In this document: positions 27,832 through 60,864 of the stretch, piece after piece | Position numbering within the stretch: position 1 is the first letter of the stretch | Layout of the letters: every line of letters begins with the position of its first letter | Virus record (IMG/VR): IMGVR_UViG_3300045988_141624 | Location: 1-64,000 of that record | Source: a virus | Reading direction: 5' to 3' (one strand) | Length of the DNA stretch: 64,000 nt | Notes under the pieces: generated by a model | Told to the model about the DNA's origin: nothing | The model's database searches: none | Seen by the model: only the letters and a program-made list of their open reading frames with translations | Position numbers and translations under genes: made by a program

Positions 27832-30800
27832 ATGTATTTTAACAATCATGTTCATGATGAATACAGTAATGCTGCTTTAGGTTTTCCCGATGTAGTCAAC
27901 AAAGTAGAAGATGTAATTCAAAAAGCTTATGACTTGGGATTAAGTGGTATTGCAATTACTAATCATGAATGTGTTTCCTCACATATTAAAGCATTACAAT
28001 ATTATGAGAAAATGGAAAAAGACAGACCTTTTAAAATTGCTTTGGGGAATGAAATTTATTTAATGGACGAAAGTGAGGACGAAGAAAACAGAACAGAAAA
28101 AAGAACAGTTTATCCTTATTATCATTTTATTTTAACAGCTTTAGACACCTTGGGCCATAAACAAATCAGAGAGCTTTCAACAAGAGCTTGGAAAAGAGCC
28201 TATTTCTCTAGGGGTTTAATGAGGACACCCACTTATTATAGTGATATAGAAGAGGTTGTTGGACAAGAAAAAGGCCATATTATTGCCTCGACCGCTTGTC
28301 TTGGAAGCTTTTTAGATAAGATGATTTTGCAATGGAAAAATGGGGATAATACAGCAAAATTAGCTATTCATAGCTTCATAACGTGGTGCATTGATACTTT
28401 TGGTAAAGATAATTTCTTTTTAGAAATTCAACCATGTTATGAAGATAATGTAGAACAAGTGACAGTTAATTCAGCAATGAAAGAATTATCTAAAGCATAC
28501 AAACTAGGAATCATTCCTACTACTGACGCTCATTATTTAACAAAAGACATGGCTTTTGTGCATAAAACCTATCTAAATTCTAAAGAGGGTGAGCGAGAAG
28601 TAGATAAATTTTATGCCATGACTTATCTAATGGACGAGGAAGAATTGAGAACGTTTCTCAAATTGCAATTTTCCATTAAAGAAATAGATGAAATGTACAA
28701 GAATACGTTGTTAATTTGGGATAGAATTGAAAAATATGATTTACAACACAATCCTATTATTCCTCAAATTCCCGAAGAGAAGTTACCTCAATTTAAAATC
28801 AGACATTTGTTTAAGGAATGGTATTCTAAATATCCTAATTTTGCTTTTTATAGTAACAACGAGAGAACACTCCATGAACAATATTTCTTTTATCAAATTG
28901 AAAAAGGATTTGAAAAAAAGGTTTGTAATAGTGTAAAACCTAAGAATATAGAACAATATATAGCAAGATTAGATGAAGAATTTGAACAATTTCGCTTAAT
29001 AAGTGAAGCATTGGGTACATCTATCCCCTGTTATTTTAGCTCTATGTCCCGAATAATAGATATAATATGGGACATTGGTAGTTTAGTTATGCCAGGGAGA
29101 GGTAGTGCGGGTGCATGTCTTTCTTGTTATTTATTGGATATTACACAAATAGACCCCGTTCCTTTTGGTGATTATATGCCGTTTTGGAGATTCCTTAAAT
29201 AATTTTTTATCCTAAATCATTAAGACATGGATAAAAAATTTAGGGCCTTATATTAGGAATGATATAAGTGGAGACTGTGAACTATCTAACCAATAGGTGT
29301 GAGAATGTAATTCTTGCTAACGAGGAAAGTCTAAGGATGAAAATCTATGATAATCTCGTGCCAAGCCCTTTGTCAAGGAAAGGTGTAACGACTAAGCAAG
29401 CTGAATGTGGTTACAGCTTTAGCGCAGTCTACCCCAACTGAAATAAGTGGGTAAAGAAATAGTCTATCCCGCTATGGAAACATAGCGGTAGTGAGAAACG
29501 TACAACGCGGCGTAGAACTTCCAGATTAATAACATAGTTTGGCTATATGGTGACATATAGAAAATAAAGTGGCTAACCAGTGAAAGTGCTGGGTGTGAGG
29601 AAAATCCTTGCTAACAGTGAAAACCTTGTTCATCCTGAATCGTGAACATGGCGATACTGTGCCAAGTTTTGTATTAAAAATACATTAAAGGTGCAACGAC
29701 TAAGCCCCGTAGGGTGAAACTCCCCGCGGTTAATGCCACTCTCTCCAATTGGAGATGAAGATATAGTCTAAACCGACTGTTTATTCAGTGTTAAAGTATT
29801 GGGAATAAATAACCAACGGTATAATTGATTGACACAGATTCAGAATCATCAAAAAAGAATGAAATTGTTCAGGGTGTTGTAGATTTCTTTGGTGAAGATA
29901 GGGTGTTAAGCATTGCAACATTTTCTGCCTTAACCAGTAAAACGGCAATAGAGAAAAGCTGTAAAGGCTTGGGAATTAATAATGATACAGCTAACTACAT
30001 TAAAGCTATGATACCTATTGAGCGTGGTTTTACTTGGAGCTTAAAAGATTGTTTTGAGGGTGATTTGGAAAAGCAAAGAAAACCAATTCAAACATTTATT
30101 AATGAAGTCAACAAATATCCTAAGCTAAAAGAATGTGCTTTGGCTTTAGAAGGATTGATAACAGGAAGAAGCACTCATGCAGCGGGCATCTTAATTGGGA
30201 ACGAACCTTATACCAATTTCATAGCTGCAATGCGATCTCCCAAAGGCGATTTATGTTCTTGCTATGACCTAATAGACGCTGAACACTGTGGGGAAATTAA
30301 ATTTGACTTGTTAAAAACCAATGCAACAGATAAAATTCACACAACGTTAGATTTGTTACTTAAAGACAATTTAATTGAATGGCAAGGAAGTCTAAAGAGC
30401 ACCTATGAAAAATATATTCATCCCGATGTATTAGATTATGAAAACCCTAAAATGTGGGATATAATTAAAAATATATATAGTGTTTTTCAATTTGATACAA
30501 ATGTCAGTGTCCGCGCTTTAAATGCTACTCATCCTAAAAGCGTTATGGATTTATCTGCAACAAACAACCTGTTAAGGCTTATGTCTCAACCAGGACAAGA
30601 ATCTCCCCTAGATAAATATGCACGTTTTAAAAACAATATTAATGAATGGTATAATGAAATGGAAAGCTATGGGCTTTCTAAAGATGAACAAAAATGCTTA
30701 GAGGAATATTTAATTGATTCTTATGGACTAGCAGACAGTCAAGAAAAAGTAATGCGTCTAAGTATGGATAAAAGAATAAGTGGTTATACATTAAAAGAGG

Positions 30801-32710
30801 CAAACAAACTTCGTAAAAGTATTGCGCGGAAATCACAGAAATTACAAGAAGAAGCTAAGCAACAATTTTTTGAATATGGAGAGAAATTAGGCACCAGAAA
30901 AGAATTTTTAAATTATGTATGGAATGTTATTTTTGGTGCGTCATTTGGCTATGTAGAAATGGTCATGATTTGTGAACCTTACCAGGGGTGTGCTGTTATT
31001 TAACAGTGCTAACGGTATCAGCTGAATAAGACTGTTGTTCAAGAGTTACAACTAGATAACAACGTTAAAAAAGACGAAGCAGCTGACTAAGAAAATCTAA
31101 GGTCTATGTAAAATAGATAGCTGACAATACCGTGCGGTTTCTTATGAGGTCGTGTAGAGACTATTCCGATAGGAAGTACACTAACTATTGGTACGTTGGT
31201 GGAAGTGCAAATCTATAACAAATTTTGTTATAAAGATATAGTCCGATGGATTAATATGAAAATTCATATGTTGTAGAAATACAAAAATCCACTCGATTCC
31301 TTCTCCCAAATTCATTCAACCTCTTATTCTATTATCGCCCTACAAGAATTAAATCTTAATTATTATTACCCCTCAGTCTATTGGAATTGTGCTTGTTTAA
31401 CAGTGGAAAGTCAATCAGACGATGACACAGATAAAAGAACAGCAATAGATTATGGCAAAATGGCTCGCAGTATTTACAAGATGAAACAACATGGTATTGA
31501 TGTTTTGCCTCCTTCTATCAACAAATCCAATATTTCTTTTACACCCAATAAAGAAAACAACACTATTTTGTTTGGATTAGGTGGTATTTCAGGGATAAAC
31601 AATGAAGCAGCTAGAGAAATAGTTAATAATCGTCCATATAGTTCTTTTGAAGATTTCTACAACAAAGTTCAAAAGAATAAAAATACGTTATTAAAAAATC
31701 AAAAAATTATAACTTTAATTAAATCTGGTTGTTTTGATGAGTTTGATACTAGCAGAACAAATATTATGAAACAATATTTTGCTTTAATGTATGAACCAAA
31801 AGAAGAGTTGACTTTGCAAAATATGAGCAAAATATTAGAGTATGATATTCCTGTTCCCGAAGAGCTATTAAACCCTTATTTGTTAAGTAAACAAATAAAA
31901 CAGAAAAAGAATTTCTATAAAAACGATGAAAAAGCTAAGAGTAAAAAACATTATAGAGTGCCACATGATTTACAAAATGATTTATTAATTATGTTCCCTG
32001 AATTAAAAGAAGATGTTGATTATTATTATGATAGTGACATAATGATAATTATTGATAAAGCTTTAGACAAACAAATGAAAAAGATTAATGAAAAAATTAA
32101 AGAGTATATTACACAGGATAAAGTAAAGGATGAGTTTAATTCTAGGGGTAGAGAGTTGTTATACCATGAGAACATAAAACAAGAAAATGAATTGCAATGG
32201 GCTTTTTCTTCCACGTCTTTTTATCCAAACAATGAACATGAATTAAATAACATTGATTGTGATAAATATAATATTATTGATTATAATCTTTTACCAGAGA
32301 ACCCTGAATTTGAAACTAAGTATTATGTTAAGAAAGATGGTGAAGAGGTTGTTTGGAACCAATATTATCTTTATAGAATTTGTGGTACAGTAACAAGTAA
32401 GGATAAAAATAAAAGGACAGTAGATATTTTGACTCCCACCAATGATGTGGTAACAATTCGTTTAAATGATGAAGTTTATACTTATTATGAACAAAAAATA
32501 TCTGAGGGCACAGATACAAATAAAACCGTAATTGATGATAGCTGGTTTACAAGAGGAAAAATGTTATGTGTTGTAGGATATAGACAAGGGGACGGGTTCA
32601 GAGGAAAAAGATATAGAAGCTCAATTTTCAAACATACAATTATGTTAATAGAAAAAGTAAATCAAGACGGTTCTTTAGAGTTAAGAACAGAAAGAAAAAT
32701 AAAAGACTAG
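27832..32710 (+). CDS. dnaE: DNA polymerase III alpha subunit (PHP plus polymerase core), interrupted by three group I introns. Exons: 27832-29195, 29496-29526, 29828-30950, 31296-32710.
   Basis: PHP motif HVHDEYS, plus GRGSAGACLSCYLLDITQIDP. Spliced joins restore FWRFL-NVQRGVELPD-IDTD and GY-SFSQIHS. The exons sum to 3933 nt, which is 1311 codons. Confidence 0.85.
29196..29495 (+). mobile_element. Group I intron (PolIII intron 1, no ORF)
   Basis: The 5' exon ends in U and the insert ends in G. Core-like strings ttgctaacgaggaaag, ctcgtgccaag, gtgtaacgactaagc and aaatagtct. It is a paralogue of the next intron. Confidence 0.75.
29527..29827 (+). mobile_element. Group I intron (PolIII intron 2, no ORF)
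   Basis: The exon end ccagaU can pair with the intron sequence gtttgg (P1-like). Core-like strings ttgctaacagtgaaaac, ctgtgccaag, gtgcaacgactaagc and gatatagtct. It ends in G. Confidence 0.75.
30951..31295 (+). mobile_element. Group I intron (PolIII intron 3, no ORF)
   Basis: It splits GY|SFSQIHS. It contains agatatagtccga. The 5' exon ends in U and the insert ends in G. Confidence 0.7.
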
Positions 32711-32729
32711 AGAAAATCTAGTCTTTTTT
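32705..32729 (+). terminator. Rho-independent terminator
   Basis: gactag (32705-32710) pairs with ctagtc (32718-32723), followed by TTTTTT. Confidence 0.6.
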
Positions 32730-32731
32730 AT

Positions 32732-32760
32732 TTGACTTTTTTTATTTTATGATGTATAAT
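32732..32760 (+). promoter_or_regulatory. Near-consensus promoter
   Basis: TTGACT (32732-32737), a 17-nt spacer, then TATAAT (32755-32760). Confidence 0.65.
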
Positions 32761-32789
32761 ACAGACAAAAGATAGAGAGGAGAACAAAA

Positions 32790-34943
32790 ATGGAATTAGA
32801 AAAGAAAATAATTCCTTACAAGACAGTATATGAGAATGATTCTTATGGTATTAAATTATGTAATGATAAAGAAACTTTAGAAAGCATATGTATTGTAGGC
32901 AATGTTGGCTGCTTGCAAAATAATATTGAATATAGAGTTATTCTTAAAAAGAAAACTCATCCTAAATATGGTGAGCAATACGAATTAATTAGCGTTCCAA
33001 GTTTAGACGATATAGAAATCAGTGATGAAGATGAGGTTTCTGTATTATTGTCTGTTATGAACGAAACACAGGCCAACAAGGTTCATGAAGCTTATCCACG
33101 TTTTGTCCAGATGATTATTAATGGCGATGAGGATAAAATTGATATAGATAACATTAAAGGGGTTGGCAAAAAGCGTCTTAATGAATACATTGATAAAATT
33201 AGTGGGGTTTATAAGTATCAGAAAATTATTAATACTTTTCCTAAATATGGATTGAATCTCAACGATTGTAAAAAACTATTTAAAAAATATCATTCTTTAG
33301 ACGAAATTAAGAATAAATTAGATGAAAATCCATATCATATACTAATTGATGTATTAGAAAAAAGTTTTCTTAAAGCCAACACTGTCATTATTGAAAATGC
33401 TCCAAAGTTTTTGGGGAGCAAAATTCAAACCGAATATTTATTATTGTATGTTCTTGGAATGAATGAAAACGAAGGAAACACAAAAGTTAATGCCAATGTT
33501 GCTGCTTATATAGCTAAAGATATTGTGCCTGAGTGTATTTCAGCAATGAAGGAAGTGGCTGAGAATAGCCCTCTAATTTTCTATGATAATAGTACAAAAT
33601 TCATGGCTAAAATGGATACTTATCAAGCAGAGGTAAATATATCCAAAGAACTAATTAAACGCCTAAATAGCAACAAAAACCTTAATATTAGGTGGGAAAA
33701 ATACAAGGGTTTTTTAAGTGATGAACAAGCAAATGTATTGAAAACTATTAACGAGAAAAATATTGTTATTTTATGTGGCCCTGCTGGTTCAGGTAAAACA
33801 TCTTCTGTTAAAGCTTTAATAAATATGTTAGATGAAGAACTATTTACATACGAATTATTAGCTCCCACTGGTATTTCAGCTAAAAGATTGGCTGATGTAA
33901 CAGAAAGACACACTCAAACGATTCATAAAGAATTGGCGCTTCAAAGCTATATAACACAAGATGTTTTGATTGTAGATGAATTTTCTTTTGTGGGTGTAAA
34001 ACTTTTTGCTCAATTATTGGAAAATGTGTCTCCTGAAACAAAGATTTTATTGGTTTGTGATGATGAACAATTGCCCTCAATTCCGTGTGGTAATGTTATT
34101 AAAGACATTATGAGAGCTGACATTGTTCCAACCATTAAACTAACCAAAATATTTAGATATGGGAACAATGCTTTGTTGACCGTTGCAACAGATATTAGAA
34201 ACAAAAAACCATATTTAAATGAAACGGGCTGCATATTTGAGGGACATAAGACAAATAAAGAATATTCTTTTATAGAAATAAATGACAATCCTTTATCTCA
34301 AGTTATGGAACAATATAAAAAAATGTTGCAAAAATACAAACAAAGTGATATTATTATATTGTCTCCATTTAATATTGGTGATTTCGGTACATATGCTATC
34401 AACAATAAAATTCAAGACACTTATAATCCATTAATCAACGATGAAGAAATAGTAAAAAGCGTCCAAACTTCACACGGAAGTACGAAAGTTCATTATAGAA
34501 AAGGTGACAGGGTTATTAATACTAAAAACATTTATCATGCTGTTACACCTTCTGAATTTTATGATATTGGATTAAAAGAGGGTAGCACAACAATTGTTAA
34601 TGGAGATATTGGTGTTGTAAGGATGGTGGATTTAGAAAATAAATGTTTGATTATTAATTTTAGTGAAAATACAGTAGTCTTTACATTTAATGATCTTGCT
34701 CATTTGCTGCTAGGCTATGCTATTTCTACTCACAAATCACAGGGGTCAGAATTTCCAGTAGTAATTAACATTGTTCATCCTCAACACTCAAGAATGTTGA
34801 CAAAAAATTTGCTCTATGTAGCCAATACAAGAGCAAAAGAATTACTTATAGAGATAGGAGATGTTGCTACAATTAATAAAGCGATTCAAATTGAAGCCAC
34901 GGAAGATAGAGAAACTTTTTTGTACGAACTACTTACAAATTAA
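32790..34943 (+). CDS. RecD/YrrC-like SF1 DNA helicase
   Basis: Walker A LCGPAGSGKTS, motif II LIVDEFSFV, and C-terminal AISTHKSQGSEF and YVANTRAK. Confidence 0.8.
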   Translation: MELEKKIIPYKTVYENDSYGIKLCNDKETLESICIVGNVGCLQNNIEYRVILKKKTHPKYGEQYELISVPSLDDIEISDEDEVSVLLSVMNETQANKVHEAYPRFVQMIINGDEDKIDIDNIKGVGKKRLNEYIDKISGVYKYQKIINTFPKYGLNLNDCKKLFKKYHSLDEIKNKLDENPYHILIDVLEKSFLKANTVIIENAPKFLGSKIQTEYLLLYVLGMNENEGNTKVNANVAAYIAKDIVPECISAMKEVAENSPLIFYDNSTKFMAKMDTYQAEVNISKELIKRLNSNKNLNIRWEKYKGFLSDEQANVLKTINEKNIVILCGPAGSGKTSSVKALINMLDEELFTYELLAPTGISAKRLADVTERHTQTIHKELALQSYITQDVLIVDEFSFVGVKLFAQLLENVSPETKILLVCDDEQLPSIPCGNVIKDIMRADIVPTIKLTKIFRYGNNALLTVATDIRNKKPYLNETGCIFEGHKTNKEYSFIEINDNPLSQVMEQYKKMLQKYKQSDIIILSPFNIGDFGTYAINNKIQDTYNPLINDEEIVKSVQTSHGSTKVHYRKGDRVINTKNIYHAVTPSEFYDIGLKEGSTTIVNGDIGVVRMVDLENKCLIINFSENTVVFTFNDLAHLLLGYAISTHKSQGSEFPVVINIVHPQHSRMLTKNLLYVANTRAKELLIEIGDVATINKAIQIEATEDRETFLYELLTN

Positions 34944-34961
34944 AAGGAGTATACCACATCT

Positions 34962-35162
34962 ATGTCGAATATATTAATTACCCTACTAAATATAGTGTCT
35001 ACATTGGTTCTTATATGCTTGTGTATTACTTTCTATTTTTGGTATTGGCACCCTGATGAAAATATTGAATTGCAAAAGAAAATCTTAACACTCTTAATGA
35101 TTTTTGCTATTATAGTAGCAGCTCTAGTATTGTGTTATATTTTTATTATGATTTTTGAGTAA
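34962..35162 (+). CDS. Small membrane protein (two TM helices)
   Basis: Hydrophobic segments ILITLLNIVSTLVLICLCITFYFW and LLMIFAIIVAALVLCYIFIMIF. Confidence 0.5.
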   Translation: MSNILITLLNIVSTLVLICLCITFYFWYWHPDENIELQKKILTLLMIFAIIVAALVLCYIFIMIFE

Positions 35163-35176
35163 TAAGGAGAAACAAA

Positions 35177-35380: not shown

Positions 35381-35398
35381 TATCAGGGAGGATATAAA

Positions 35399-38300
35399 TT
35401 GTCAAAGTTATTGGAAAAATATCAAGAACAATATAAGCCTTATGTAAAGTTTATTGATTCTTATCGTAAAGCTTCCAATGCAGCTAGTGGTAGTGAAGTA
35501 GACTCTAACGCAAATGTAGAGAATAAAAACATTACCACTTTACAAGGAGAACTAAACAAAAAAGAAATTATTGGAACAAATCGCACTCTAATGATTGAAA
35601 AACTTACAGAACTGTATGGCGAAGAAACCGCAAAAGAATACATTCGTCAACTTGAGGCCCATGAAATTTATAAACATGATGAAACCAGTATTATGCCGTA
35701 CTGCGTTAGCATTACAATGTATCCTTTCTTATTCGATGGGCTAACCAACATCGGTGGTTTATCTACGGCACCCAACAATTTGGATTCTTTTTGTGGGAGC
35801 TTTGTTAATTTAGTATTTGCCATTGCTTCTCAATTCGCAGGAGCAGTAAGCACACCAGAGTTTCTAATGTATATGGATTATTTCATTAGAAAAGAATATG
35901 GAAATGATTATTATTTAAAACCTGATTCTGTAGTATCAGCCATTGGTAGAAAAAGAACTATTCATTCTGTTATTCATGATAAGTTCAGCCAAGTTGTTTA
36001 TTCATTAAATCAACCAGCTGCCGCAAGGAATTTTCAAAGCGTAAACTAAAATGCGCCTATATGTAGTAATAGATATAGCAAACTCCTTTAATTTCTGGGA
36101 AATCTTATTATAATTATAGTTTTATCATTCATAATAAGACAATCAGAAGCGAAGCCCTATAAAGGGAACGTTCAACGACCATTGCGAAAGCAAGTACACT
36201 ATAAGCGTTTGATAGTGGAAATGGGGAGTATCCTTTCAAAGGATAGTGATATGGTCTACTCTTTATGGTGACATAAAGCAGTTCATAAGAGAACGCATAC
36301 AACGTAGCGCATTGTATGGAATACAAGGGTTTTGGAATATTGCTTATTTCGACCAACCTTATTTTAACGGTATGTTTGAAGATTTTGTTTTTCCCGATGG
36401 TTCTGAACCTTGTTGGGATAGTGTGAATTGGCTCCAAAAAGACTTTATGAAATGGTTTAATGCAGAAAGATTAAAAACAGCTACATCGTTCTTATCTTTC
36501 CCTGTTGAAACTGTTAATCTTTTGGATAATGGGACAGATTATGTGGATAAAGAATGGAAAGATTTCACAGCACAAATGTGGGCAGAAGGACATTCATTCT
36601 TCTGTTATAGAAGCAATAGTGTTGACTCGTTGGCATCGTGTTGTAGGCTCAGAAACGAAATTCAAGAAAACACGTTCTCATTTACGTTAGGTGCCGGAGG
36701 TGTGTCTACAGGTTCTAAAGGCGTTATTACCATTAACATCAATAGATTGGTGCAAAATGTTTATAAAAAGAATCCTCACGCAACATTAAAAGATATTTCT
36801 AAAACTGTTAGAGAACAAATTCATAAAGTACATTGTTACTTAACAGCATTTAATGAAATTATAAAAGATAATTTTAAATCTAAAATGCTTCCTGTTTATG
36901 ATGCAGGATATATTGCTTTAGAAAAACAATATTTAAGTTTAGGTATGTAATTTAATGCCTTACATTGCTTTTCCAGTTATCGCTGGGGTACTAAGGAGTG
37001 CTAACGAGGAAACCTGACTACCATAAGGTAAAAGGCAATCTCGTGGGAAGGAAGTTTTTGTATGGAAATTTATATGATTCAAAATGATATTAATAATATG
37101 GTTTATATAGGACAGATAAATAATTCAAAACATAGGTTGAAGCAACATGTTTCAGCAGATTTATTAAAAAGACTGTTTTATTCATTGAAATATGAACAAG
37201 ATAAAACTATGACTCAAATCGCTAGAGAGTATAAAATTGACATAAGTCAACTGAATAAAATTAACCAAGGACGCGACCACAGGGTTGATTGGCAAACATA
37301 TCCTGTTAGAAAAGGCAAAGTATCCAATCCGTTATACAAACATGCTGAGGAAATAAGAAACTTGCTTAAAAACACAGATATTCCACAAAAAGACATAGCC
37401 AGAAAATTTAATGTTTCTGTTTCCTCGGTGCGTGCTATCAATAAGGGGAGCTATTATAGAGATAATAAACTATCTTATCCTTTAAGATATAATTATCAAT
37501 GCTATAATAGTGGAAGAACCGCTCTGTCTCCTAGTGAGGTTTGTGAAATAGAAGAGAAATTAAAAAACACTAATATTTCAATGCGCTCCATTGCTGCGGA
37601 ATACGAAATCGCATTGACAACTGTTACAAATTTAAATATTGGCTCAATAAAAAAATATCGTAAAGAATCATTAAATTATCCATTGCGGAAACTTTAACCT
37701 GTATCGACTATCCTCGCATAGAGGAGTAAAAAAACTATTGATACGTTTTTTGAAATGGCAATGGCACTATCAAGGGATAGTAATTAAGAAATAGTCAGTT
37801 CTATTAGAAATAATAGGTTAAACGATTAACGGTTTTCTTGAAGGGGCAGAATTTTTAGGCATTGAGATTTCACCCAATGAGGAATATTTTGCCTATGGTG
37901 AAGCCATTCTAAAACCAATCTACGAAGAAAACAAAAAAGATAAAACATCAGAGATTATGTTTAACACGGAGTTCGTGCCTGAAAAGAGTGGGCACTAAGT
38001 AGGATAATCCATAAACTACTTATAGGAAATTTTCTTTAATTGACTCGGAAATCCAGAGGTGGACAACGAGGGGCAAGTTTAAATACAGCCTGAACGACTA
38101 AATAAGAAAACTTCATAGGAAATTAAATGAAGGTGCAATAGTCTGAACTCATATACAACCTAACTAAAGTATGAGAAAGAAAGTCAGATGTACAGACATC
38201 TTAAAGAAGAACTTTCTTCGCCAAGCTATCTTGGTCATTAAAGTAACAGAATTGGCAGAAAATCTCGGTGTTAAAAATGCAAAATGGGATAGAGAAGATG

Positions 38301-38966
38301 GATATTATGTTCCCAGAGATTGTTACAATAGCTATTTTTATATAGTAGAAGATGAAAATACTAACCTTTTAGATAAGTTTATTCTACATGGAGATAAATT
38401 AACCAAATATTTAGATGGTAGACAAAACTGCCTGTTACACCTTTTCCACTAATCAGTGGGGTATACAAAATATGCTAACGGTGAAGGCTAAGTCTTATTG
38501 ATACGCTAATACCGTGGGAAAGATTTTTACTATACAGTTAAAATCCAATCCTGTATCGACTATCTCCGTATCGGGAGAGTAGGGTTGTTATTGATACGCA
38601 ACCCGAAATGGGTGTTGCTGCGCAAAGCAGTTAAAATATAGTCAGCGCCGTTTGGAAACAACGGATAAAGTGGGTTCAGCTCTCCATGCTAACTTAGAAG
38701 AACATTTATCTAAAGAACAATACTTAAAAATGCTTGAAGTAGCTATTAAAACTGGTTGCAGTTATTTCACATTTAATATCCCAAATACAGCCTGTAATGA
38801 CTGTGGATATATTTCTAAACATAAACTAACCAAATGTCCTAAATGCGGAAGTGAGAACTTAGATTATATAACAAGAGTAATTGGTTACATGAAAAGAATT
38901 TCTAGTTTCTCAGAAGCAAGACAAAAGGAAGAAAAACAAAGATATTATGACAAAGTTAAAGTATGA
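35399..38966 (+). CDS. nrdD: Anaerobic ribonucleoside-triphosphate reductase (class III NrdD), interrupted by four group I introns. Exons: 35399-36042, 36329-36944, 37825-37980, 38255-38419, 38673-38966.
   Basis: Joins restore NFQSV-FWNIAYFDQPYF, KQYLSLG-INGFLEGAEFLG, NTEFVP-AENLGVKNAKWD and KYLDG-GSALHANL. The C-terminus has a CNDCGY..CPKCGS zinc ribbon and a glycyl-radical-type RVIGYM. The exons sum to 1875 nt, which is 625 codons. Confidence 0.85.
36043..36328 (+). mobile_element. Group I intron (nrdD intron 1, no ORF)
   Basis: The exon end agcgU can pair with the intron sequence gcgc 12 nt downstream. It contains ttcaacgacc and gatatggtct, and ends in G. Confidence 0.7.
36945..37824 (+). 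mobile_element. Group I intron (nrdD intron 2) carrying an endonuclease-like ORF
   Basis: Core strings gtgctaacgaggaaacc, ctcgtgggaagg and gaaatagtca flank ORF 37062-37697. The 5' exon ends in U and the insert ends in G. Confidence 0.75.
37062..37697 (+). CDS. Intron-encoded GIY-YIG-type endonuclease relative with three NUMOD1-like HTH repeats. The catalytic domain appears truncated.
   Basis: The N-terminal IYMIQNDINNMVYIGQ...RLKQH matches GIY-(x10)-YIG...R..H. Three repeats of the form (M/Q)..IA.(E/K)(Y/F).(I/V)..(S/T).(L/V)..(I/L)N.G follow. No downstream conserved Glu/Asn region is seen. Confidence 0.6.
   Translation: MEIYMIQNDINNMVYIGQINNSKHRLKQHVSADLLKRLFYSLKYEQDKTMTQIAREYKIDISQLNKINQGRDHRVDWQTYPVRKGKVSNPLYKHAEEIRNLLKNTDIPQKDIARKFNVSVSSVRAINKGSYYRDNKLSYPLRYNYQCYNSGRTALSPSEVCEIEEKLKNTNISMRSIAAEYEIALTTVTNLNIGSIKKYRKESLNYPLRKL
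37981..38254 (+). mobile_element. Group I intron (nrdD intron 3, no ORF)
   Basis: It splits FVP|AENLG. It contains ctgaacgactaaataag and gcaatagtctga. The 5' exon ends in U and the insert ends in G. Confidence 0.7.
38420..38672 (+). mobile_element. Group I intron (nrdD intron 4, no ORF)
   Basis: It splits LDG|GSALH. It contains atgctaacggtgaagg, accgtgggaaag, cctgtatcgactatc (also present in intron 2) and aaatatagtcag. Confidence 0.7.
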
Positions 38967-50656: not shown

Positions 50657-50670
50657 TCTATCACCTCCGC

Positions 50671-51039: not shown

Positions 51040-51042
51040 ACC

Positions 51043-52356: not shown

Positions 52357-52379
52357 ATTATCTCGCCCCTTCTTTATGA

Positions 52380-53263: not shown

Positions 53264-53279
53264 CTAGTATCACGCTCTT

Positions 53280-53525: not shown

Positions 53526-53566
53526 TTATTCATCACTCACATTTTATAGCTAATAAGCAGAGAGCC

Positions 53567-56500
53567 TTAGCGTAGGCTCCCCACTTGAATAGCTGTTGAC
53601 ATAAAATTGTTTTTCAATGTATTTACAAAAGAACTTGCGTCTTTAACATTCGGTAGTACCAACTTTTCAAAATTAAACTGATTATTGGTGTCTCCACTTC
53701 CAGAATTATTATTTGCCCCCAACATGCTTAACCATTGTGACGGATGATATTGTCCAATTTCCATTAAATTTTGCGCCAATGTATGAGGAACAATACCAGA
53801 ACCACGACTCAAAGGTGCTAAAATATTCTGTTGTGACGGAATATATAATTCGCTACCATTTTCGTTAATATTTCCTATCATGTTTCTAGGAATATATGCA
53901 CTACCAGAAGCAAAGCCCTTGGCTGATAAAGCGCTTTGAGTTTTGCTACCAAACACACCATCAACAGATAAGCCAGAATCTTTTTGGAATTTCTTTAGCG
54001 CATTTACGGTTTGAGTTCCCATAACGCCATCGACCGCCAAGTTCCCATAACCCAAAGAATTTAAAGCGTTTTGCAAAGCCTTTACATTATCGCCTTTACT
54101 GCCTTTTTTCAGCGTTCCAGAAGATTTAGTTGATGAACTTCCTCCACCACTGCTTTTTCCAGGAGAAATGTAATTATCATCCAACTGCTGAAGAATAGAG
54201 TTATATTGACTAATGAAACTCTTTAAATTACCAAGTCTCTTTTCCCAATTCTTTTGTTCTTCATTTACACCAAATATCTGTTGAGCAATTAATCTCTTTT
54301 GGTTATTTTCATAAGAATCAGCAGCTTCTTGCCACAAATCCTTATAATCTTCCCAATATTGTATTTTCTCATCATATTTATCTTCGGAAGCTTGCTTTTG
54401 ATTTTGTAAATCCTCTAATTCTTTTTCATAAGCTTGTTTTCGTCTTACTTCATCTAAGTTCTTTTGAGCTTCATTTACAGCGCCTATGTCACTTTCATAA
54501 ACAAAGCCCTTTCCCTCACGATATATTCTAACTCGCGTGTTCTCAGCTTTAGCAAGACTCTCCAATGCTTCTTCTAATTCTAATTGCTTATCTAACTCTT
54601 CATTTTGCTTTTGCAACGCTTTTATTTTAGCATCCCAATACTCTTGCTCTTTCTTCTTTTGTTTTTCTAACGCTTTTATCTCTTTATCAGCTAAATCATT
54701 GATATAGTCTAAAGCGTCTTCGTAGTTTTCTTTTTGTCTTTGTAGCGCTTCTTTTGCTGCATCGGACGTTTGCTTAGAAGCAGAACTTGTTTTAGATTTA
54801 GACTTAGAGCTAGATTTTTTAGAAGATTTTTTACTAGAACTTTTTTTCTTTACACCAGGAGCAGACCAATTTTGAGCAATAGGCGAAACACCGTCAATTG
54901 TTCCGTCCCCACTTAAAATATCTCTGGTGTCTTGAGCATTATATACCACATCGCCTTTGTGTAGGTATCCTAATTCAGCTCCATGTTCACCCGCTATATA
55001 AGCATTTCTACCATGTTTATCTGTTACAAGCTCAGGCCCTTTTTCACCCAACCAAGATAATTCATTCTTGGGTGCACCGGTCGGAGGAGTGCCCGTCCAA
55101 CTACCTTTTACTTTTGATAAATAATTGTTTACAATATCGTCATAACTCGGGTTTCCTGCGCCTGGCCCCGTCACTTTTGTTTGTATCGTAACCGTTTTAA
55201 CAATGTTTGGCATTTTGCGCACATCGTTAAATTGGTCTTGAACAGTAGTTAAATCTTTTTGAGCGTCCTCAGAATCAACATCAACATGCAATAAAGCTCT
55301 AAGCTCAACATCAGACGCCTCTTTAGCTTTGGCTATTTCCTCATCAATTTTTTCCAACGGAGTATTACCGTTTTCATCGCTTACATCAGTTTTAATATTT
55401 ACTTTCTTAATTATCTCACTGATTTCAGAGCTTGTAAAGCCCATTTTTGATAAGAAAGCCACCAAATCAGATAATTTAGCAGTCGCTTGACCCGTACTAG
55501 CGTCAACACTAATAATCTTTTGTTGAGTTAATAAATCCGTCCAAGCCTGAGTAGAAGATTGTAAATCTAATATTTCAACCCCAGCTGCTTTAGCTTGTTC
55601 TATAAAATTATAAAACTCAACATCGGTCATACCCATGGCTGTTTGAGCATCAGCACCAAGCATTAATAATTTTTTACCATTATCATCTACAACTAGACCA
55701 AGTTCACTAGCTTTTGACATCAATGAATCAAAATCGTATTCTATAACCCCGCCTGTTTGTTTGTAAGCTTCCAACAAAGCAGAAAGAGCTTCTCGTGGTA
55801 TGCCTAGTGCTTGTGCTAATTTTTCAGCATTTTTAATCATAATATTGCCTGCGGCGTCAACACTAGCAATATCAGGAGTTACCCCAGCGCCTGAAATAAG
55901 GTCACCTAGCTTAGAATAATCTCCATCTTTAATAAACTTATAGAAGCTTTGGTATCTTTCTCTCGCAGTTTTCTCAGCTAAATCCCAATTACCATTGAAA
56001 TCAGCATACCAATTCTCACCAAAGAATATGCTCATTAACTCTTGGGTCTGAGCACCACGATTTCCTTCAGCAAGATTTTTCATCAACTGCTCATAACCTT
56101 TTGACATATTAGCTAAATGAGCGGTTTCAGGTTCTATTTTTAAAGCAGCTGTTACTCTATCAGAAATGCCTTGTGCACCAGCTTCAATTTCATCGCCTTC
56201 TGCCTTTAAGGCATTGCGCATTTGGGCTAAAGAATCTTTAAACTTAGGAGCATATTCAGACTCGGCTAAATTTAATAAAATTTTCCTAGATTCTTCTATG
56301 CTCTTGTTACCAATCGAAAAATCAGAACTATTAATAGTTTTTACAAGATTATCATAGTCTTGAGCATTTTTAATTTCAGCTGCGCCCATTTGAGTAAGAG
56401 CTTCAATACCCTCTTTTTTAATGGACTCAATATAAGCGTCTTGGGCTGAATTTACTTTATCTTGAGCCTCTTGCAGACTTGACAACTTGGTAGAAACAGC

Positions 56501-59500
56501 ACCCAGTGCATCTGATACATCCATTCCTGCTCCTTCGGCTTGTCTAAGCTTATTGAGCATTATAGAAAGTTTAGATATTTGTTCTTCAACAGGGGCGTTA
56601 TTGTCCCACATTTTGCCCCACTCGTCACCAAAGACTTGTCTAAATTGCCTTAATGCGGAACCCGTTGCTTCCACAGACGCAGTTTGAGCTTCCTTTAACC
56701 CCTTCTCAGCTTCTACTATTTGAGCTTGTAAATATGTACTATTGTTTGCTAATCTCTTACTATAAATTCCACCAAGAATTTGAGATTGCTCTTCATACTT
56801 CCCATTAACTAAATCTATACCAGCTGCCTCATCGCCAATTGAATCTACAATCTTGCCTTGTAATTCACTCAACTGTTTGTTTATAGCAACTCTTTCTTCA
56901 TCACTCTCAGCGTTTTTCTTTTGAGCTGCTAATTCTCTGTATTGAGCTAATTGCTCACCTAGAGTGGTAGTTAATTCACTTTCCTTTTGGCGCAATTCTT
57001 CAGCTTTTTGTTGCTGCTCAGCTCTAACTTGACTAGCATGAGCAGAAAGAGCAGAAAAAATACTAATACCAGCGCTTAAAATGCCTAGGAATCCACCGAC
57101 CCCCATAACCCTTGAGAAAGCACCTACGCCACTTGCTAAAGAACTAAACGCACCCTCGCCAACAGAACGTAAAGAACTAAATGCAGAAGTCGCTGCTTTT
57201 ATAGCTACTGGAATGTTTTTAAACGGTTCTATTAAACTAGTAAAACTATTTTTTAAATTGTTTACTGCATTAGGAAATTGATTTCCTATAAAAATTCCCG
57301 CAAATGTTACCAAAACGGGTATAAAAGTTTGTAGTCCACCCAAAGCATTTGCCACTTCTAAAATAGATGTAGCAAAACTAAGTATAGTTTTTACAGCGCC
57401 TGAACTAATACCTTTTGTAAAGAAGGCTTCAAACTGAGCCGTAAGCCCCGCTATTTTACCTTCAATAGAATCAAGATATGCCGCATTTTCTCTTGAGGCA
57501 GAACCAAAAGAGTTCATAGCGACTTCACTTGCACCAACCGCGCTATCAAAGTTTGAAAGCACACTGTTTACAACGTCTCATTTGTATTAAGTTAATATAA
57601 TTAACCGTAAATAAATTTAGCTAACTCCTTTTTATAAGAACCATCTCTAAACGTCCAATATGGCAATCTCAATAAAGGAATATTATTATTTTTACAATAT
57701 TTATTTTTTATTTCATCTCTTTTTTTCTGATTTAATAAACACTCTTCATCTGTTTTTTGCGTGGTTGTAAAATGAAATATGCCGTCCACTTCTATTAGTT
57801 TTAAATTAGAATCTTGTTTAATACAATAATCAAACCTTAATTTTCTTTTATAAACACAATCATCAAAAGAAAATTCTTTAATATATTTTATATTATTATT
57901 GTTCAACCAATCTTCTACCAAAAACATTATAGAAGAAGTAGCTTTTGTACAAACCGTACATCTTGTTTGTCCTCTTAAAAAAGAAGCTAAACTTACTGTA
58001 AAAAATTTCCCACAACCACACTTCATAATTAAATGTTTTTTATTTGTATCAATTTCTTTTAAACAACACGACAGCTTATTTCTAACAATATAGTGTTTAA
58101 TATTATAAATAAAATAAGGATTATCCCATTTGAAAAACCGAGTTTTTAATTTGTTATACCTGTTTAAAGATAAATAACTTATAACACTTCTATACCCTTC
58201 CTTGTTTTCAAACGGCAATAACTCTTTAATATTATTATACTTATCAAACAATGGAATTAATTCCAAACTTTCAAATGTCTTTTTAACGTATTCTATCTTG
58301 TGTTGCTTATATTCATGAGCTCTTTTTATCGAGCATTTTTGACAAGTACAACATTCACTTTCTAAAAAATGATACAAAGTCTTTGGATAAATTTCCCCAC
58401 ACTTCTCACAAACAAAAAACAGAGGGCTTTTATTTGCGTTTATATATTCTTCACTAATCAAAGACGTATTTTTATGCATTATTTTAATATAATGTCGTAT
58501 ATTTTCTATGGTGTAAGGATTATACTTAGAATATCTTTGAAACTTATAAGTATTACTCATTTTTATTGCTTCCTTTGATAATAAATACTTATAACCTTCA
58601 CCATCTACACAAAAAATTTTATCCTTTATTCTTCGGACGTTTACATATCCATTCTTTAATAATTCTTTAATTTCTTCCATTTTATTTCCTTGCTAAATTT
58701 ATTCACTCTTATACTTTCATATAAGATTAGACTATATTTTTATCACAATATAAAATCGTAATAACTGGCTCTTTCCACATAAATACTATGTGTACCCTAC
58801 TTGCTTCGTCTATTAAAATAGCTTATTCTATTATATAATAGTTACATTTATTAATTCTTATAAAAACTTATTAATTCTTATAGAAACTAATTGCTTTTGG
58901 TAGTCGTTGAACCTTATTCTATATTTCAATAGAATCTTGGCTGCGGATTGACCATATATCTTTACGCTTTTTACCATACTCTAGTTAGTTACTCTAAACC
59001 ATTGAAACATTGCTGTCTCAACTTGGTACGCAAAGCTTTAGGCTTCCATGTCTTTTACACAGAAATAGTAAACCACTCTATCTTCCCCGCAATTTAGCCA
59101 GTACGGGCTTATGTTGCAAAACCTGGGTTTTCTTGTTTGTTAGCTTTTGCTTTCACAAAAGAACGGATTATATTTTAATATTGTTCAAAACAATACCGCA
59201 GACTCTTTCCATATATACATATGTACTCTACTCGCTTCGTCCATTTATATGGCTTATTCTATCATACGATAGTTACATTTGTCAACTTAAAGTCAACTGC
59301 TTTTGATAATCTCTGAACCTTATTCTATATTTCAATAGAATCTTGGCTGCGGATTGACCATATATCCTTATACTTTTTACTATATCTTAGTTAATTACTC
59401 CAAGCCCCTAATATATCACTATATTAAGTTAGTATATAAGGCTCTTAGGCATCCATGTTAAACACAGATAAAAGTGATGAACCTTTTCTTTCCCGCAATT

Positions 59501-60864
59501 AAGTCTGTCCGTGGCTCAACCCTAGAGTCAACCACCTATCAAAGAGGCATAATAATTTTTAGTATTCTGGTCTAACGTATCCCAAATACCAGATAATTCC
59601 GAAAAAATTTCAAACGTAGATTTTAACTGTCCACCAGTACCCATTAGGGTTATACCGATTTTGTTAAAATCTTTTTCCATAGAGGCTAATAAGTCAAGGT
59701 TTTGTTCCCCTGAATCATCCATAGCCTGTAAATTCAATGTAATGGTTCTTAAACCACGAGCAACACGACTTGCTTGCCCAGGCATCATCTCGGTGCCTGC
59801 TGTTAGTACATTATATTAATAAAGAATCGTTACTTCTTTATGAATTGCACAAAACAATTCCTTACACTTTCATGTAAGATTAGATTATATCTTGTTTATA
59901 ATAAAATATAAACTGCCCCGTTTCCCCGCACTTGCGAGTATGCTATATTACAATAGACTTACTAATCGTTGAACTTTTTTCCATTGTCTATGGAAACTTA
60001 GCTGCGGATAACCCAATATTTATTTTTGTTACTATACCAAAAACATTACTTTTTGCCATCATAATATTACTATTATAATTTAGTAAATAAATCTCTAAGG
60101 GCTTCCCCGTCAATTAGAGGCATTTTACTAGACCAACTATTTTAGCCTAATGTTTGTTCCATGCTATTCCCAGCTTGCGCCATCGTAGCGGCAACTTTAG
60201 GAACAGCCGTGGCTAAATCACCTGAAGATACTGCAAACTTATTTGCTACTTCGTTTACAGCGTCTACAATATGCTCTGAATCTGCTGCTGTAATATTAAA
60301 TGCTTTCATTTGAGAAATCAAGAAAGCAGCAGCGTCACCAGCACTTACTTCTTCATCAGCAACATTCTGGAACATAGAAGCAACTTCAGCCAATTGAAGA
60401 GATTCTACATCATTAAAACCAGATTTAGTAAATTCAGTTGCAGCTTCAATTACTTGTGTAGCCGTTCTCGCAACCTTTTCACCAACCTGTAAAGCTCTAT
60501 TGCCAAATTGCTCTAGTTCAGCACCCGTCATGTCACTGACTTTTCTTAATTCTGTCATAGCTGCGTCTAATTCAAAAACAGAAGACACACCTTTTCTAAA
60601 AGAATTGTAAACAGAATCAATTATTTTTGTACCAATTTGCCATCTTGAGTTCTTATCAATAATACTGCTCAAGGACTGACTAGTTTTGTCCATGGCTTTA
60701 TTCATTTTATTGAAACCAGAAGTGGCAGATTTAGTACCAGCGTCACCAAATTTAAAACCCTTAAAGTTTGAAGCAAGCTTATTAAGCTGTCCTTGTAAAT
60801 TGTTTTCATCTAAAAGGGCTTTAACGTTAATACTATAATTATTACTTCCTGGCAAATAAACCAC
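53567..60864 (-). CDS. Tail tape-measure protein interrupted by three group I introns. Proposed exons: 60864-60150, 59808-59531, 59153-59121, 59559-53567 corrected to 57559-53567.
   Basis: The N-terminal fragment has a TP901-type TMP core (MTELRKVSDMTGAELEQFG...). The fragment 59788-59528 continues it (AGTEMMPGQASRVARGLR). The large C-terminal ORF is coiled-coil rich and carries a PG_binding_1 domain. The proposed exons sum to 5019 nt, which is 1673 codons. Junctions are uncertain by a few nt. Confidence 0.75.
57560..59120 (-). mobile_element. Group I intron (TMP intron 3) with an endonuclease ORF in its 3' region
   Basis: Core strings aattgcggggaag, atccgcagccaagattc, ggttcaacgactacc and aatatagtct precede ORF 58680-57601. 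It is a paralogue of intron 2. Confidence 0.65.
57601..58680 (-). CDS. Intron-encoded putative homing endonuclease: repeated zinc-ribbon modules plus a C-terminal PD-(D/E)XK (Vsr/DUF559-like) domain
   Basis: Several CxxC...CxxC pairs (CEKC..CCTCQKC, CGC..CTVC). The C-terminus reads RFDYCI...LIEVDGIFH...K..D, then PLLRLPYW. Confidence 0.5.
   Translation of the reverse strand: MEEIKELLKNGYVNVRRIKDKIFCVDGEGYKYLLSKEAIKMSNTYKFQRYSKYNPYTIENIRHYIKIMHKNTSLISEEYINANKSPLFFVCEKCGEIYPKTLYHFLESECCTCQKCSIKRAHEYKQHKIEYVKKTFESLELIPLFDKYNNIKELLPFENKEGYRSVISYLSLNRYNKLKTRFFKWDNPYFIYNIKHYIVRNKLSCCLKEIDTNKKHLIMKCGCGKFFTVSLASFLRGQTRCTVCTKATSSIMFLVEDWLNNNNIKYIKEFSFDDCVYKRKLRFDYCIKQDSNLKLIEVDGIFHFTTTQKTDEECLLNQKKRDEIKNKYCKNNNIPLLRLPYWTFRDGSYKKELAKFIYG
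59154..59530 (-). mobile_element. Group I intron (TMP intron 2, no ORF)
   Basis: The exon end gtggU can pair with the intron sequence gccac (P1-like). Core strings aattgcgggaaag, atccgcagccaag and atataatcc. It ends ..ttgtG. Confidence 0.65.
59809..60149 (-). mobile_element. Group I intron (TMP intron 1, no ORF)
   Basis: Minus-strand core strings aattgacggggaag, atccgcagctaag, ttcaacgatta and gatataatct. An alternative in-frame 5' splice site lies at 60144. Confidence 0.7.

What the first reader, a model, noticed from the sequence alone, without database searches (positions are those of the whole stretch)
29196..60149. Ten introns in 64 kb: intron families spread across three essential genes on both strands
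The plus-strand introns share tgctaacg(a/g)(g/t)gaa.. , ..cgtg(c/g)(c/g)aag, (c/g)aacgacta and a(t/a)atagtc. nrdD introns 2 and 4 additionally share cctgtatcgactatc(c/t)(t/c)cg and ttattgatacg. The three TMP introns form a second, Tetrahymena-like set. Only two of the ten retain an endonuclease ORF, and at least one of those looks degenerate. This suggests repeated within-genome spread, whether by tandem duplication, reverse splicing or trans-acting endonucleases. By my recollection this count is more than T4 (3 introns) or phage Twort (about 5).
Basis: inference. Interest (0 to 1): 0.65.

Follow-up and report, generated by a model that had tools for sequence, protein, structure and literature searches.

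The report
Ten group I introns, three phage genes
[quoted passage not shown] This is an unusually dense case of a known phenomenon, and most of the introns arrived separately from related phages rather than by copying within the genome.

Summary
Ten inserts interrupt dnaE (3), nrdD (4) and the tape-measure gene (3). Removing them restores clean ORFs that align without gaps to uninterrupted homologs. Every insert follows a U and ends in G. All ten have group I support, either from RF00028 hits or from covariation with diverged homologs.

Only tmp_B/tmp_C and nrdD_I2/nrdD_I4 are paralogous families inside this genome, and both are old (roughly 73% identity or less). The other shared motifs are the generic group I core.

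Most introns have site-specific orthologs at 95–100% identity in other phages. There they carry different homing endonucleases (LAGLIDADG, HNH+NUMOD4, HNH, GIY-YIG) that have been deleted here. A relative with 93–98% identical proteins lacks six of the ten. Independent homing followed by endonuclease-gene loss is therefore the best explanation.

The TMP introns have extra hairpins between P7 and P3' (IA-type), so they are not Tetrahymena-type IC1.

Intron-rich phages are already published: crAss-like Zeta phages have up to 14 introns and Jug phages average 18.5. TMP introns are also documented. This is a new member of a known kind.

Notable details are the density (10 in 31 kb) and two tandem intron pairs separated by mini-exons of 31 and 11 nt.

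The parts
27832..32710 (+). dnaE-type DNA polymerase III alpha gene in four exons: 27832–29195, 29496–29526 (31-nt mini-exon), 29828–30950, 31296–32710
   Evidence: Pfam PHP, DNA_pol3_alpha, finger and HHH_6 domains are spread over the pieces. The spliced ORF is 1310 aa. It is collinear with the uninterrupted L087 gene at 93%.
29196..29495 (+). dnaE_I1, group I intron, 300 nt, no ORF
   Evidence: RF00028 62.5 bits. P1 is cct|TAAAT/ATTTAGGG with U•G. The L086 ortholog is 95% identical and carries a 307-aa LAGLIDADG ORF in the P1 loop.
29527..29827 (+). dnaE_I2, group I intron, 301 nt, no ORF
   Evidence: RF00028 52.7 bits. P1 is ccagat|TA/TAGTTTGG. The same site is occupied in CB457P1, L090 and L094.
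30951..31295 (+). dnaE_I3, group I intron, 345 nt, no ORF, extended P5 and P7.1/P7.2
   Evidence: No RF00028 hit. Consensus fold with the CB457P1 and SA-C12 site-orthologs gives 57 pairs, 15 compensated. The L088 ortholog is 96–100% identical and carries an HNH+NUMOD4 ORF.
35399..38966 (+). nrdD (anaerobic ribonucleotide reductase) in five exons: 35399–36042, 36329–36944, 37825–37980, 38255–38419, 38673–38966
   Evidence: The Pfam NRDD profile is spread over the pieces. The spliced ORF is 624 aa. All four junctions are gap-free against L001, L003, L005 and L069.
36043..36328 (+). nrdD_I1, group I intron, 286 nt, no ORF, P7 = GACCA/TGGTC
   Evidence: RF00028 83.7 bits. Orthologs in L051, L007, L086 and L088 are 98–100% identical and carry a 243-aa HNH ORF. 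Core homologs occur in hundreds of GenBank phages.
36945..37824 (+). nrdD_I2, group I intron, 880 nt, with a degenerate GIY-YIG ORF (37062–37697) in the P6 loop
   Evidence: Family fold with nrdD_I4 and L098 gives 53 pairs, 22 compensated. The ORF lacks about 134 aa of the 345-aa L004 endonuclease.
37981..38254 (+). nrdD_I3, group I intron, 274 nt, compact core without P7.1/P7.2
   Evidence: RF00028 19.3 bits, E 0.044. Fold with the L009 same-site intron (69% identical) gives 54 pairs, 18 compensated, 4 of them in P3.
38420..38672 (+). nrdD_I4, group I intron, 253 nt, P7.1/P7.2 present
   Evidence: RF00028 28.4 bits. Family covariation. 99% identical to the L004 intron.
53567..60864 (-). tape measure protein gene in four exons: 60864–60144, 59808–59531, 59131–59121 (11-nt mini-exon AAAACCCAGGT), 57578–53567
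   Evidence: Pfam PhageMin_Tail and PG_binding_1. The spliced 1673-aa ORF reads …ASLIGGKTQVDVVNSV…, matching the uninterrupted L081/L083 genes.
59809..60143 (-). tmp_A, group I intron, 335 nt, no ORF, P7 = GATTA/TAATC
   Evidence: RF00028 45–49 bits. 10-bp P1 with U•G. Absent from the close relative L084.
59132..59530 (-). tmp_B, group I intron, 399 nt, no ORF, paralog of tmp_C
   Evidence: 95.5% over 67 nt and 85% over 59 nt to tmp_C. Trio fold gives 103 pairs, 97% paired, 28 compensated versus 10.9±2.5 in shuffles.
57579..59120 (-). tmp_C, group I intron, 1542 nt, with a 359-aa endonuclease-like ORF (58680–57601) downstream of P9
   Evidence: RF00028 28.4 + 19.0 bits for the two halves. Covariation. 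The ORF hits PHROG 559, 9084 and 7140, annotated as HNH, homing and intron-encoded nuclease. CB457P1 has a homolog at the same site.

Best explanation
The ten inserts are self-splicing group I introns. Each removes itself from the dnaE, nrdD or TMP pre-mRNA by the usual two transesterifications: P1 carries a U•G pair at the 5' splice site and the intron ends in a terminal G. Full-length proteins are therefore made.

The introns are a heterogeneous collection. Seven have extra hairpins between P7 and P3' (IA layout). Three appear to lack them; this is firm for nrdD_I3 (covariation) and rests only on the RF00028 alignment for dnaE_I1 and dnaE_I2.

Most were acquired one at a time, by endonuclease-driven homing during co-infection with related phages that carried the same intron at the same conserved site. 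The endonuclease genes were then lost by deletion. That left eight ORF-less ribozymes, one remnant ORF and one apparently intact ORF.

Only tmp_B/tmp_C and nrdD_I2/nrdD_I4 reflect copying of one intron lineage to a second site, and those events are old.

What is shown: the introns are real, their junctions are exact, their folds are conserved, their presence varies between relatives, and orthologs elsewhere carry endonuclease genes. What is inferred: that they splice in vivo, the direction of change (gain versus loss), and homing as the transfer mechanism.
For: Junctions:
- Spliced ORFs are clean and collinear with uninterrupted homologs.
- U at −1 and a terminal G in 10 of 10.
- P1 with U•G near the 5' end in 9 of 10, weaker in tmp_C.

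Folds:
- RF00028 passes the gathering score for three introns, gives 45–49 bits for tmp_A, and gives sub-threshold hits for five more.
- Covariation: TMP trio 28 compensated pairs versus 10.9±2.5 in shuffles, 0 of 500, and 0–2 in slid controls. nrdD_I2/I4/L098: 22 of 53 pairs. dnaE_I3: 15 of 57. nrdD_I3: 18 of 54.
- P7 appears in four mutually compensated versions: GACUA/UAGUC, GACCA/UGGUC, GAUUA/UAAUC, GCAUA/UAUGC.

Independent acquisition:
- Orthologs at the same sites are 95–100% identical and hold LAGLIDADG, HNH+NUMOD4, HNH or GIY-YIG ORFs.
- nrdD_I1 is 98–100% identical to orthologs whose flanking exons are 82–86% identical.
- Contig 139153, with 93–98% identical proteins, lacks dnaE_I1–3, nrdD_I1, nrdD_I3 and tmp_A.
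- Substitutions against that relative cluster at the dnaE I1/I2 sites. The mini-exon is 24/31 identical to it but 28/31 identical to the I1-bearing L086.
- Each intron has different nearest relatives in GenBank phages.
Against: - No RNA data, so splicing is not demonstrated.
- tmp_C has a weak P1 (4 bp plus a mismatch).
- The tmp_C endonuclease family is unresolved: no significant Pfam nuclease-domain hit (only a weak zinc-ribbon HypA match, E 0.006).
- The direction of change cannot be told from presence/absence alone. The near-twin could have lost six introns precisely rather than this phage gaining them.
- With only 2–3 sequences per family, the covariation counts rest on few independent events, and the structures were predicted from the same sequences.
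- The window is a metagenome-type sequence. An assembly chimera of co-existing strains could inflate the number of introns on one molecule.
Confidence: 0.85

Rival explanations
1. One or two founder introns multiplied inside this genome and colonised new sites in three genes, by tandem duplication, reverse splicing or a trans-acting endonuclease.
For: tmp_B and tmp_C are paralogs 11 nt apart. CB457P1 has only the tmp_C-site intron, so tmp_B looks like an ectopic copy. Its guide sequence fits its own exon: GCCAC pairs with GTGGT, whereas CB457P1's GCCTG pairs with CAGGT. nrdD_I2 and nrdD_I4 are one family in one gene. TGCTAAC-type P3–J3/4–P4 motifs are shared by four or five plus-strand introns.
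Against: The paralogs are old. tmp_B/tmp_C are about 73% identical and roughly equidistant from the CB457P1 copy, and both are already present in the relative L084. The remaining introns share only core motifs. They differ in architecture, have separate same-site orthologs with four different endonuclease families, and have different nearest relatives in GenBank.
Confidence: 0.12
2. The count on a single genome is inflated. The window is a consensus or chimeric assembly of several co-occurring strain variants, each with fewer introns.
For: Related contigs from the same IMG sample series (3300045988) carry different intron subsets, so mixed populations exist. The exon mosaicism near insertion sites could also come from chimeric assembly.
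Against: All exons are in frame and continuous with no breakpoints. Intron/exon junctions are exact at all 20 boundaries. Tandem pairs (I1+I2, B+C) lie within read-pair distance. B+C is seen independently in L084.
Confidence: 0.08
3. Some inserts no longer splice. The host genes would then be expressed as separately translated fragments (genes in pieces) or would be pseudogenes.
For: Three inserts score under 20 bits against RF00028 and dnaE_I3 is not detected at all. tmp_C has an imperfect P1. The CB457P1 ortholog of dnaE_I3 lacks a G before the 3' exon.
Against: Fragments such as the 31-nt and 11-nt exons cannot be translated on their own. Exons lack start codons and ribosome-binding sites at the junctions. 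Exon sequences stay conserved and in frame. Helices are maintained by compensatory change, which implies selection on the RNA fold.
Confidence: 0.05

Closest known systems
Phage group I introns of the T4 td/nrdB/nrdD (sunY), SPO1 and Twort type (subgroup IA2)
   Same: Self-splicing introns in DNA-metabolism and structural genes of tailed phages. They insert at the most conserved codons and have hairpins between P7 and P3'. The ORF sits in a peripheral loop (P6 in nrdD_I2, as I recall for T4 td). They move by homing. nrdD_I1 and dnaE_I3 match introns of T4-like, Staphylococcus, Bacillus and Enterococcus phages at 70–80%.
   Different: Many more per genome than T4 (3) or Twort (about 5 by my recollection). 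Eight of ten are ORF-less. Three appear to lack P7.1/P7.2; for dnaE_I1 and dnaE_I2 this rests only on the RF00028 alignment. In the nrdD_I2/I4 family and dnaE_I3, one or two hairpins lie between the P3 5' strand and J3/4.
Intron-rich gut phages: crAss-like Zeta/Delta groups (PMC7886860) and Jug jumbo phages (PMC12880540)
   Same: Massive infestation of core genes, including nrdD and DNA polymerase, by group I introns and homing endonucleases in gut phages. Intron content varies between close relatives.
   Different: Those genomes are 145–402 kb, with up to 14 introns or 18.5 on average. Here there are 10 in a 64-kb window (31 kb span) of a roughly 100-kb-class DnaE-encoding phage related to Enterocloster phages. 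Density per kb is at least as high. No inteins or recoding are seen in the window.
Spliced tape-measure and tail genes: Vibrio phage ICP1 TMP intron (PMC10448857), Cluster J mycobacteriophages (PMC3706429), Twort orf142 with three introns (cited in PMC11878797)
   Same: Group I introns interrupt tail-morphogenesis genes. HEG content varies between isolates. Several introns can sit in one structural gene.
   Different: There are three introns in one TMP. Two of them are paralogs only 11 nt apart.
Bastillevirinae introns and exon skipping (PMC11878797)
   Same: Multiple introns in a polymerase gene, with short internal exons flanked by group I introns.
   Different: Exon skipping is documented there by nanopore RNA sequencing. 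Here it is only a possibility raised by the 31-nt and 11-nt exons.

Membership tests
Group I intron (Rfam RF00028) | Match to the family covariance model at or above the curated gathering score (50 bits) | tested here: inconclusive
   Three of ten pass: nrdD_I1 83.7, dnaE_I1 62.5, dnaE_I2 52.7 bits. tmp_A scores 45–49. nrdD_I4 28.4, tmp_C 28.4+19.0, nrdD_I3 19.3, nrdD_I2 17.9, tmp_B 16.6. dnaE_I3 gives no hit. Large peripheral insertions explain the low scores.
Group I intron | Precise excision restores the host reading frame at a conserved site | tested here: met
   All ten junctions are gap-free against uninterrupted homologs.
Group I intron | 5' splice site after U paired with G in P1; intron ends in G | tested here: met
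   U at −1 and a terminal G in 10 of 10. P1 with U•G of 5–10 bp in nine (nrdD_I4's 5-bp ggtAG/CTGCC read directly from the sequence, the rest), and 4 bp plus a mismatch in tmp_C (read from the sequence by homology with tmp_B).
Group I intron | Conserved core P3–P4–P6–P7–P8 with the P3/P7 pseudoknot, kept by compensatory change | tested here: met
   Covariation for tmp_B/C, nrdD_I2/I4, dnaE_I3 and nrdD_I3. P7 occurs in four compensated versions. The core of dnaE_I1, dnaE_I2, nrdD_I1 and tmp_A comes from RF00028 alignments.
Group I intron | Self-splicing with a guanosine cofactor | not testable with these tools
   Needs in vitro transcription with GTP, or RNA-seq.
Subgroup IA (IA2-like phage introns) | Extra helices P7.1/P7.2 between the P7 5' strand and P3' | tested here: met
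   Met for nrdD_I1, nrdD_I2, nrdD_I4, dnaE_I3, tmp_A, tmp_B and tmp_C. Not met for nrdD_I3. Apparently not met for dnaE_I1 and dnaE_I2, based on the RF00028 alignment only. The set therefore mixes at least two architectures.
Subgroup IC1 (Tetrahymena-like), as proposed for the TMP introns | P3' directly following P7 with no P7.1/P7.2, plus the P2.1 and P5abc layout of IC1 | tested here: not met
   The TMP introns have four hairpins between P7 and P3'. The resemblance is limited to conserved P4/P6/P7 sequence, which RF00028 shares. An extended P5 is present, but I could not formally classify the subgroup.
Mobile intron with homing endonuclease | Intact intron-encoded endonuclease ORF | tested here: not met
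   Eight introns have no ORF. The nrdD_I2 ORF lacks most of the GIY-YIG domain. Only the tmp_C ORF looks intact. Orthologs in relatives do encode endonucleases.

The most novel reading that the evidence does not exclude
The two tandem intron pairs could impose ordered splicing or programmed exon skipping. The 11-nt TMP mini-exon (AAAACCCAGGT) must act both as the P10 partner of tmp_B (AACCC with GGGTT, intron nt 9–13) and as the P1 substrate of tmp_C (GGU). The two ribozymes would therefore compete for it.

Skipping the 11-nt or the 31-nt exon shifts the frame. That would give a truncated TMP (about 333 aa plus a short tail) or a truncated DnaE (PHP domain only). Intron density might in this way tune the amounts of full-length and truncated essential proteins, instead of being neutral.
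Probability: 0.1. Interest if true: 0.6.

Novelty: new member of a known kind. Interest (0 to 1): 0.4.

Why it matters
- It is a compact natural example of the homing-endonuclease life cycle of invasion, fixation and endonuclease-gene decay. Ten introns at different stages sit in one genome, and intron-less and endonuclease-bearing alleles of the same sites exist in near relatives.
- Uncorrected gene calling would report fragmented dnaE, nrdD and TMP genes. GenBank records of Enterocloster, Lactobacillus SA-C12 and Staphylococcus SPbeta-like phages already carry such unannotated introns.
- The 31-nt and 11-nt mini-exons are convenient substrates for studying how adjacent group I ribozymes share exon guide sequences.

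Tried and rejected
- My first by-eye junctions for dnaE_I3, nrdD_I3/I4 and the TMP mini-exon were wrong. I corrected them against homologs. The TMP mini-exon lies in the other frame and is 11 nt, not 33 nt.
- A single MAFFT alignment of all ten inserts was useless outside the core. I therefore did not build a common covariance model and used per-family alignments with diverged homologs instead.
- A megablast of the region against GenBank phages found only a 50-nt match.
- I looked for extra introns elsewhere in the window. There were no RF00028 hits in 1–27900 at E≤1, no tRNAs, and every large non-coding gap inside the span is one of the ten inserts.
- I tested whether the free-standing HNH at 13605–14801 could be the lost endonuclease of dnaE_I3. 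It is only 31% identical, so no link.
- I considered inteins and rejected them, because the inserts contain stop codons in the exon frame.
- The large protein-database searches and structure prediction were not needed and were not used.
Full report
**What is there**

The window is a low-GC (32.6%) tailed-phage sequence with no close GenBank relative. Its nearest cultured relatives are Enterocloster bolteae phages, with DnaE about 55% identical.

Pfam shows three genes in pieces. They are a DnaE-type Pol III alpha (PHP, NTPase, finger, HhH), NrdD, and a tape measure protein (PhageMin_Tail, PG_binding_1).

I derived exon boundaries by eye and then corrected them against uninterrupted homologs fetched from IMG/VR. 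The ten inserts are:

| Intron | Coordinates | Length |
|---|---|---|
| dnaE_I1 | 29196–29495 | 300 nt |
| dnaE_I2 | 29527–29827 | 301 nt |
| dnaE_I3 | 30951–31295 | 345 nt |
| nrdD_I1 | 36043–36328 | 286 nt |
| nrdD_I2 | 36945–37824 | 880 nt |
| nrdD_I3 | 37981–38254 | 274 nt |
| nrdD_I4 | 38420–38672 | 253 nt |
| tmp_A | 60143–59809 (−) | 335 nt |
| tmp_B | 59530–59132 (−) | 399 nt |
| tmp_C | 59120–57579 (−) | 1542 nt |

Removing them gives clean ORFs of 1310, 624 and 1673 aa. All ten junctions align without gaps to intron-less homologs (and for TMP B/C). Examples are RFL|NVQRGVELPD|IDTD, FG|YSFSQIH, QS|VFWN, LG|INGF, FVP|AENL, LDG|GSALH, TLG|LLTAG and IGG|KTQV|DVVNSV.

Two intron pairs are tandem. 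dnaE_I1 and dnaE_I2 are separated by a 31-nt exon. tmp_B and tmp_C are separated by an 11-nt exon.

**Are they group I introns?**

Every insert follows a U and ends in G. Nine have a 5–10 bp P1 near their 5' end, with the splice-site U paired to G. tmp_C has a weaker P1 that is homologous to tmp_B's.

RF00028 passes its gathering score for nrdD_I1 (83.7 bits), dnaE_I1 (62.5) and dnaE_I2 (52.7). It gives 45–49 bits for tmp_A. It gives sub-threshold hits for nrdD_I4, tmp_C, nrdD_I3, nrdD_I2 and tmp_B. It gives nothing for dnaE_I3.

For the weak cases I used diverged homologs to test the folds by covariation:
- **tmp_B, tmp_C and the CB457P1 TMP intron** (72–76% identical). 103 pairs including the P7 pseudoknot, 97% of cells paired. 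28 pairs changed on both sides, against 10.9±2.5 in shuffles (0 of 500) and 0–2 when partners are slid.
- **nrdD_I2, nrdD_I4 and an L098 intron.** 53 pairs, 22 compensated.
- **dnaE_I3 with its CB457P1 and Lactobacillus SA-C12 site-orthologs.** 57 pairs, 15 compensated, with P4 and P7 invariant.
- **nrdD_I3 with the L009 same-site intron.** 54 pairs, 18 compensated, four of them in P3.

P7 occurs as GACUA/UAGUC, GACCA/UGGUC, GAUUA/UAAUC and GCAUA/UAUGC, and it is always complementary.

The caveat is that these structures were predicted from the same few sequences.

**Are they one or two families that spread within the genome?**

Mostly not.
- All-vs-all blastn finds extended similarity only between tmp_B and tmp_C: 95.5% over 67 nt and 85% over 59 nt, about 73% overall. 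There is a 30-nt stretch between tmp_A and tmp_C.
- nrdD_I2 and nrdD_I4 are a real family once aligned structurally.
They are statistically real in the window, but they show common ancestry of group I introns, not recent copying.
- The architectures differ. Seven introns have hairpins between P7 and P3' (IA layout). nrdD_I3 does not. dnaE_I1 and dnaE_I2 apparently do not either, though that rests only on the RF00028 alignment.
- Because the TMP introns have the IA layout, calling them 'Tetrahymena-like' (IC1) is not right.

**Where they came from**

Seven introns have same-site orthologs at 95–100% identity in other IMG/VR phages.

Three of these orthologs are longer by 700–900 nt because they carry endonuclease genes:
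- LAGLIDADG in the dnaE_I1 ortholog (L086)
- HNH+NUMOD4 in the dnaE_I3 ortholog (L088)
- HNH in the nrdD_I1 orthologs (L051, L007, L086, L088)

The nrdD_I2 ortholog in L004 is about 400 nt longer and encodes the full 345-aa GIY-YIG enzyme. The window's nrdD_I2 ORF keeps residues 1–31 and about 161–345 of that enzyme, so it is an in-frame deletion.

The nrdD_I4, tmp_B and tmp_C orthologs in L004/L084 are 97–99% identical and about the same length.

Intron identity exceeds exon identity. nrdD_I1 is 98–100% identical, against 82–86% for 400-nt flanks. dnaE_I1 and dnaE_I3 show high identity on the upstream flank (93–97%) and low identity downstream (79–83%).

Contig IMGVR_UViG_3300045988_139153 has 93–98% identical proteins. 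Its dnaE is uninterrupted. It lacks nrdD_I1, nrdD_I3 and tmp_A, and it keeps nrdD_I2, nrdD_I4, tmp_B and tmp_C. Differences between it and the window cluster at the dnaE I1/I2 sites.

Other phages have inserts at the same dnaE and nrdD sites, or none at all. Nearest GenBank relatives differ for each intron.

This is the pattern expected from repeated homing between co-infecting relatives, followed by endonuclease-gene decay.

**The one good case of ectopic copying**

CB457P1 has a single TMP intron at the tmp_C site, after AAAACCCAGGT. Its guide GCCTG pairs perfectly with the exon CAGGT. In the window, tmp_B sits 11 nt upstream, after GTGGT, and its guide is GCCAC. The three copies are roughly equidistant, so the duplication is old. 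It is also already present in L084.

**Comparison with what is known**

Intron-rich phages are published:
- crAss-like Zeta genomes have up to 14 introns plus 3 inteins (PMC7886860).
- Jug phages average 18.5 group I introns, with nrdD fragmented in 95 of 104 genomes (PMC12880540).
- Bastillevirinae have 45 introns in 37 genes, with exon skipping (PMC11878797).

TMP introns are documented in ICP1 and in Cluster J mycobacteriophages (PMC10448857, PMC3706429).

The finding is therefore a new member of a known kind. Its distinctive points are:
- the density (ten in 31 kb)
- the predominance of ORF-less forms whose endonuclease-bearing alleles are still circulating
- the two tandem pairs with very short exons
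- a family (nrdD_I2/I4, and probably dnaE_I3) in which hairpins separate the P3 5' strand from J3/4. I could not check this last feature against the literature.

**Limits**

There is no expression data. Subgroup assignment is by inspection, not by subgroup models. The direction of gain versus loss is inferred. Co-occurrence of all ten introns on one physical genome rests on the assembly.

Noticed in passing
window 6938–8409: About 1.5 kb of very AT-rich non-coding DNA with many short direct and inverted repeats. It lies between a plus-strand gene block and a minus-strand block. There is no Rfam or tRNA hit. It may be an origin or regulatory region.
   Followed up: partly
window 13605–14801 (+): A 398-aa ORF whose ends match PHROG 6721 (unknown function), with a NUMOD4+HNH_3 endonuclease domain at aa 142–264. 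It is either a free-standing HEG fused to another protein or an in-frame HNH insertion. It is only 31% identical to the HEG of the dnaE_I3 ortholog.
   Followed up: partly
window 18700–19515 (+): A tyrosine recombinase/integrase (Phage_integrase plus SAM-like N domain). The phage may be temperate or may use a Xer-like resolvase.
   Followed up: no
L103 and L104 (Enterocloster phage CB457P1, OP172753.1): A cultured phage whose dnaE is in three pieces, with introns at the I2 and I3 sites. Its TMP is split by a tmp_B/C-like intron. All pieces are annotated only as hypothetical proteins.
   Followed up: yes
L105 686–1006 (Lactobacillus phage SA-C12) and L106 about 1476–1945 (Staphylococcus SPbeta-like phage): Unannotated group I introns split dnaE in both records, which are annotated as two genes. 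The SPbeta-like intron is mosaic. Its P3–P5 half resembles dnaE_I3 (80%) and its 3' end resembles dnaE_I2. It sits 3 nt from the I2 site.
   Followed up: partly
L103 about 6937: By alignment, the CB457P1 ortholog of dnaE_I3 has an A, not a G, immediately before the 3' exon. Either its 3' splice site is elsewhere or the terminal nucleotide is unusual.
   Followed up: no
L006 1631–2851: A related phage has an intein (Intein_splicing plus LAGLIDADG) in nrdD at residue 101, a site that is empty in the window.
   Followed up: partly
window 38439–38485, 36963–37010 and 30967–31013: In nrdD_I4, nrdD_I2 and probably dnaE_I3, the strand that pairs just upstream of P8 (the P3' position) lies right after P1. 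One or two hairpins separate it from the conserved UGCUAA–P4. The pairing covaries (ACACC/GGTGT versus CATTGC/GCAATG). P7.2 carries a conserved loop, UAUUGAUAC or UAUUGGUAC.
   Followed up: partly
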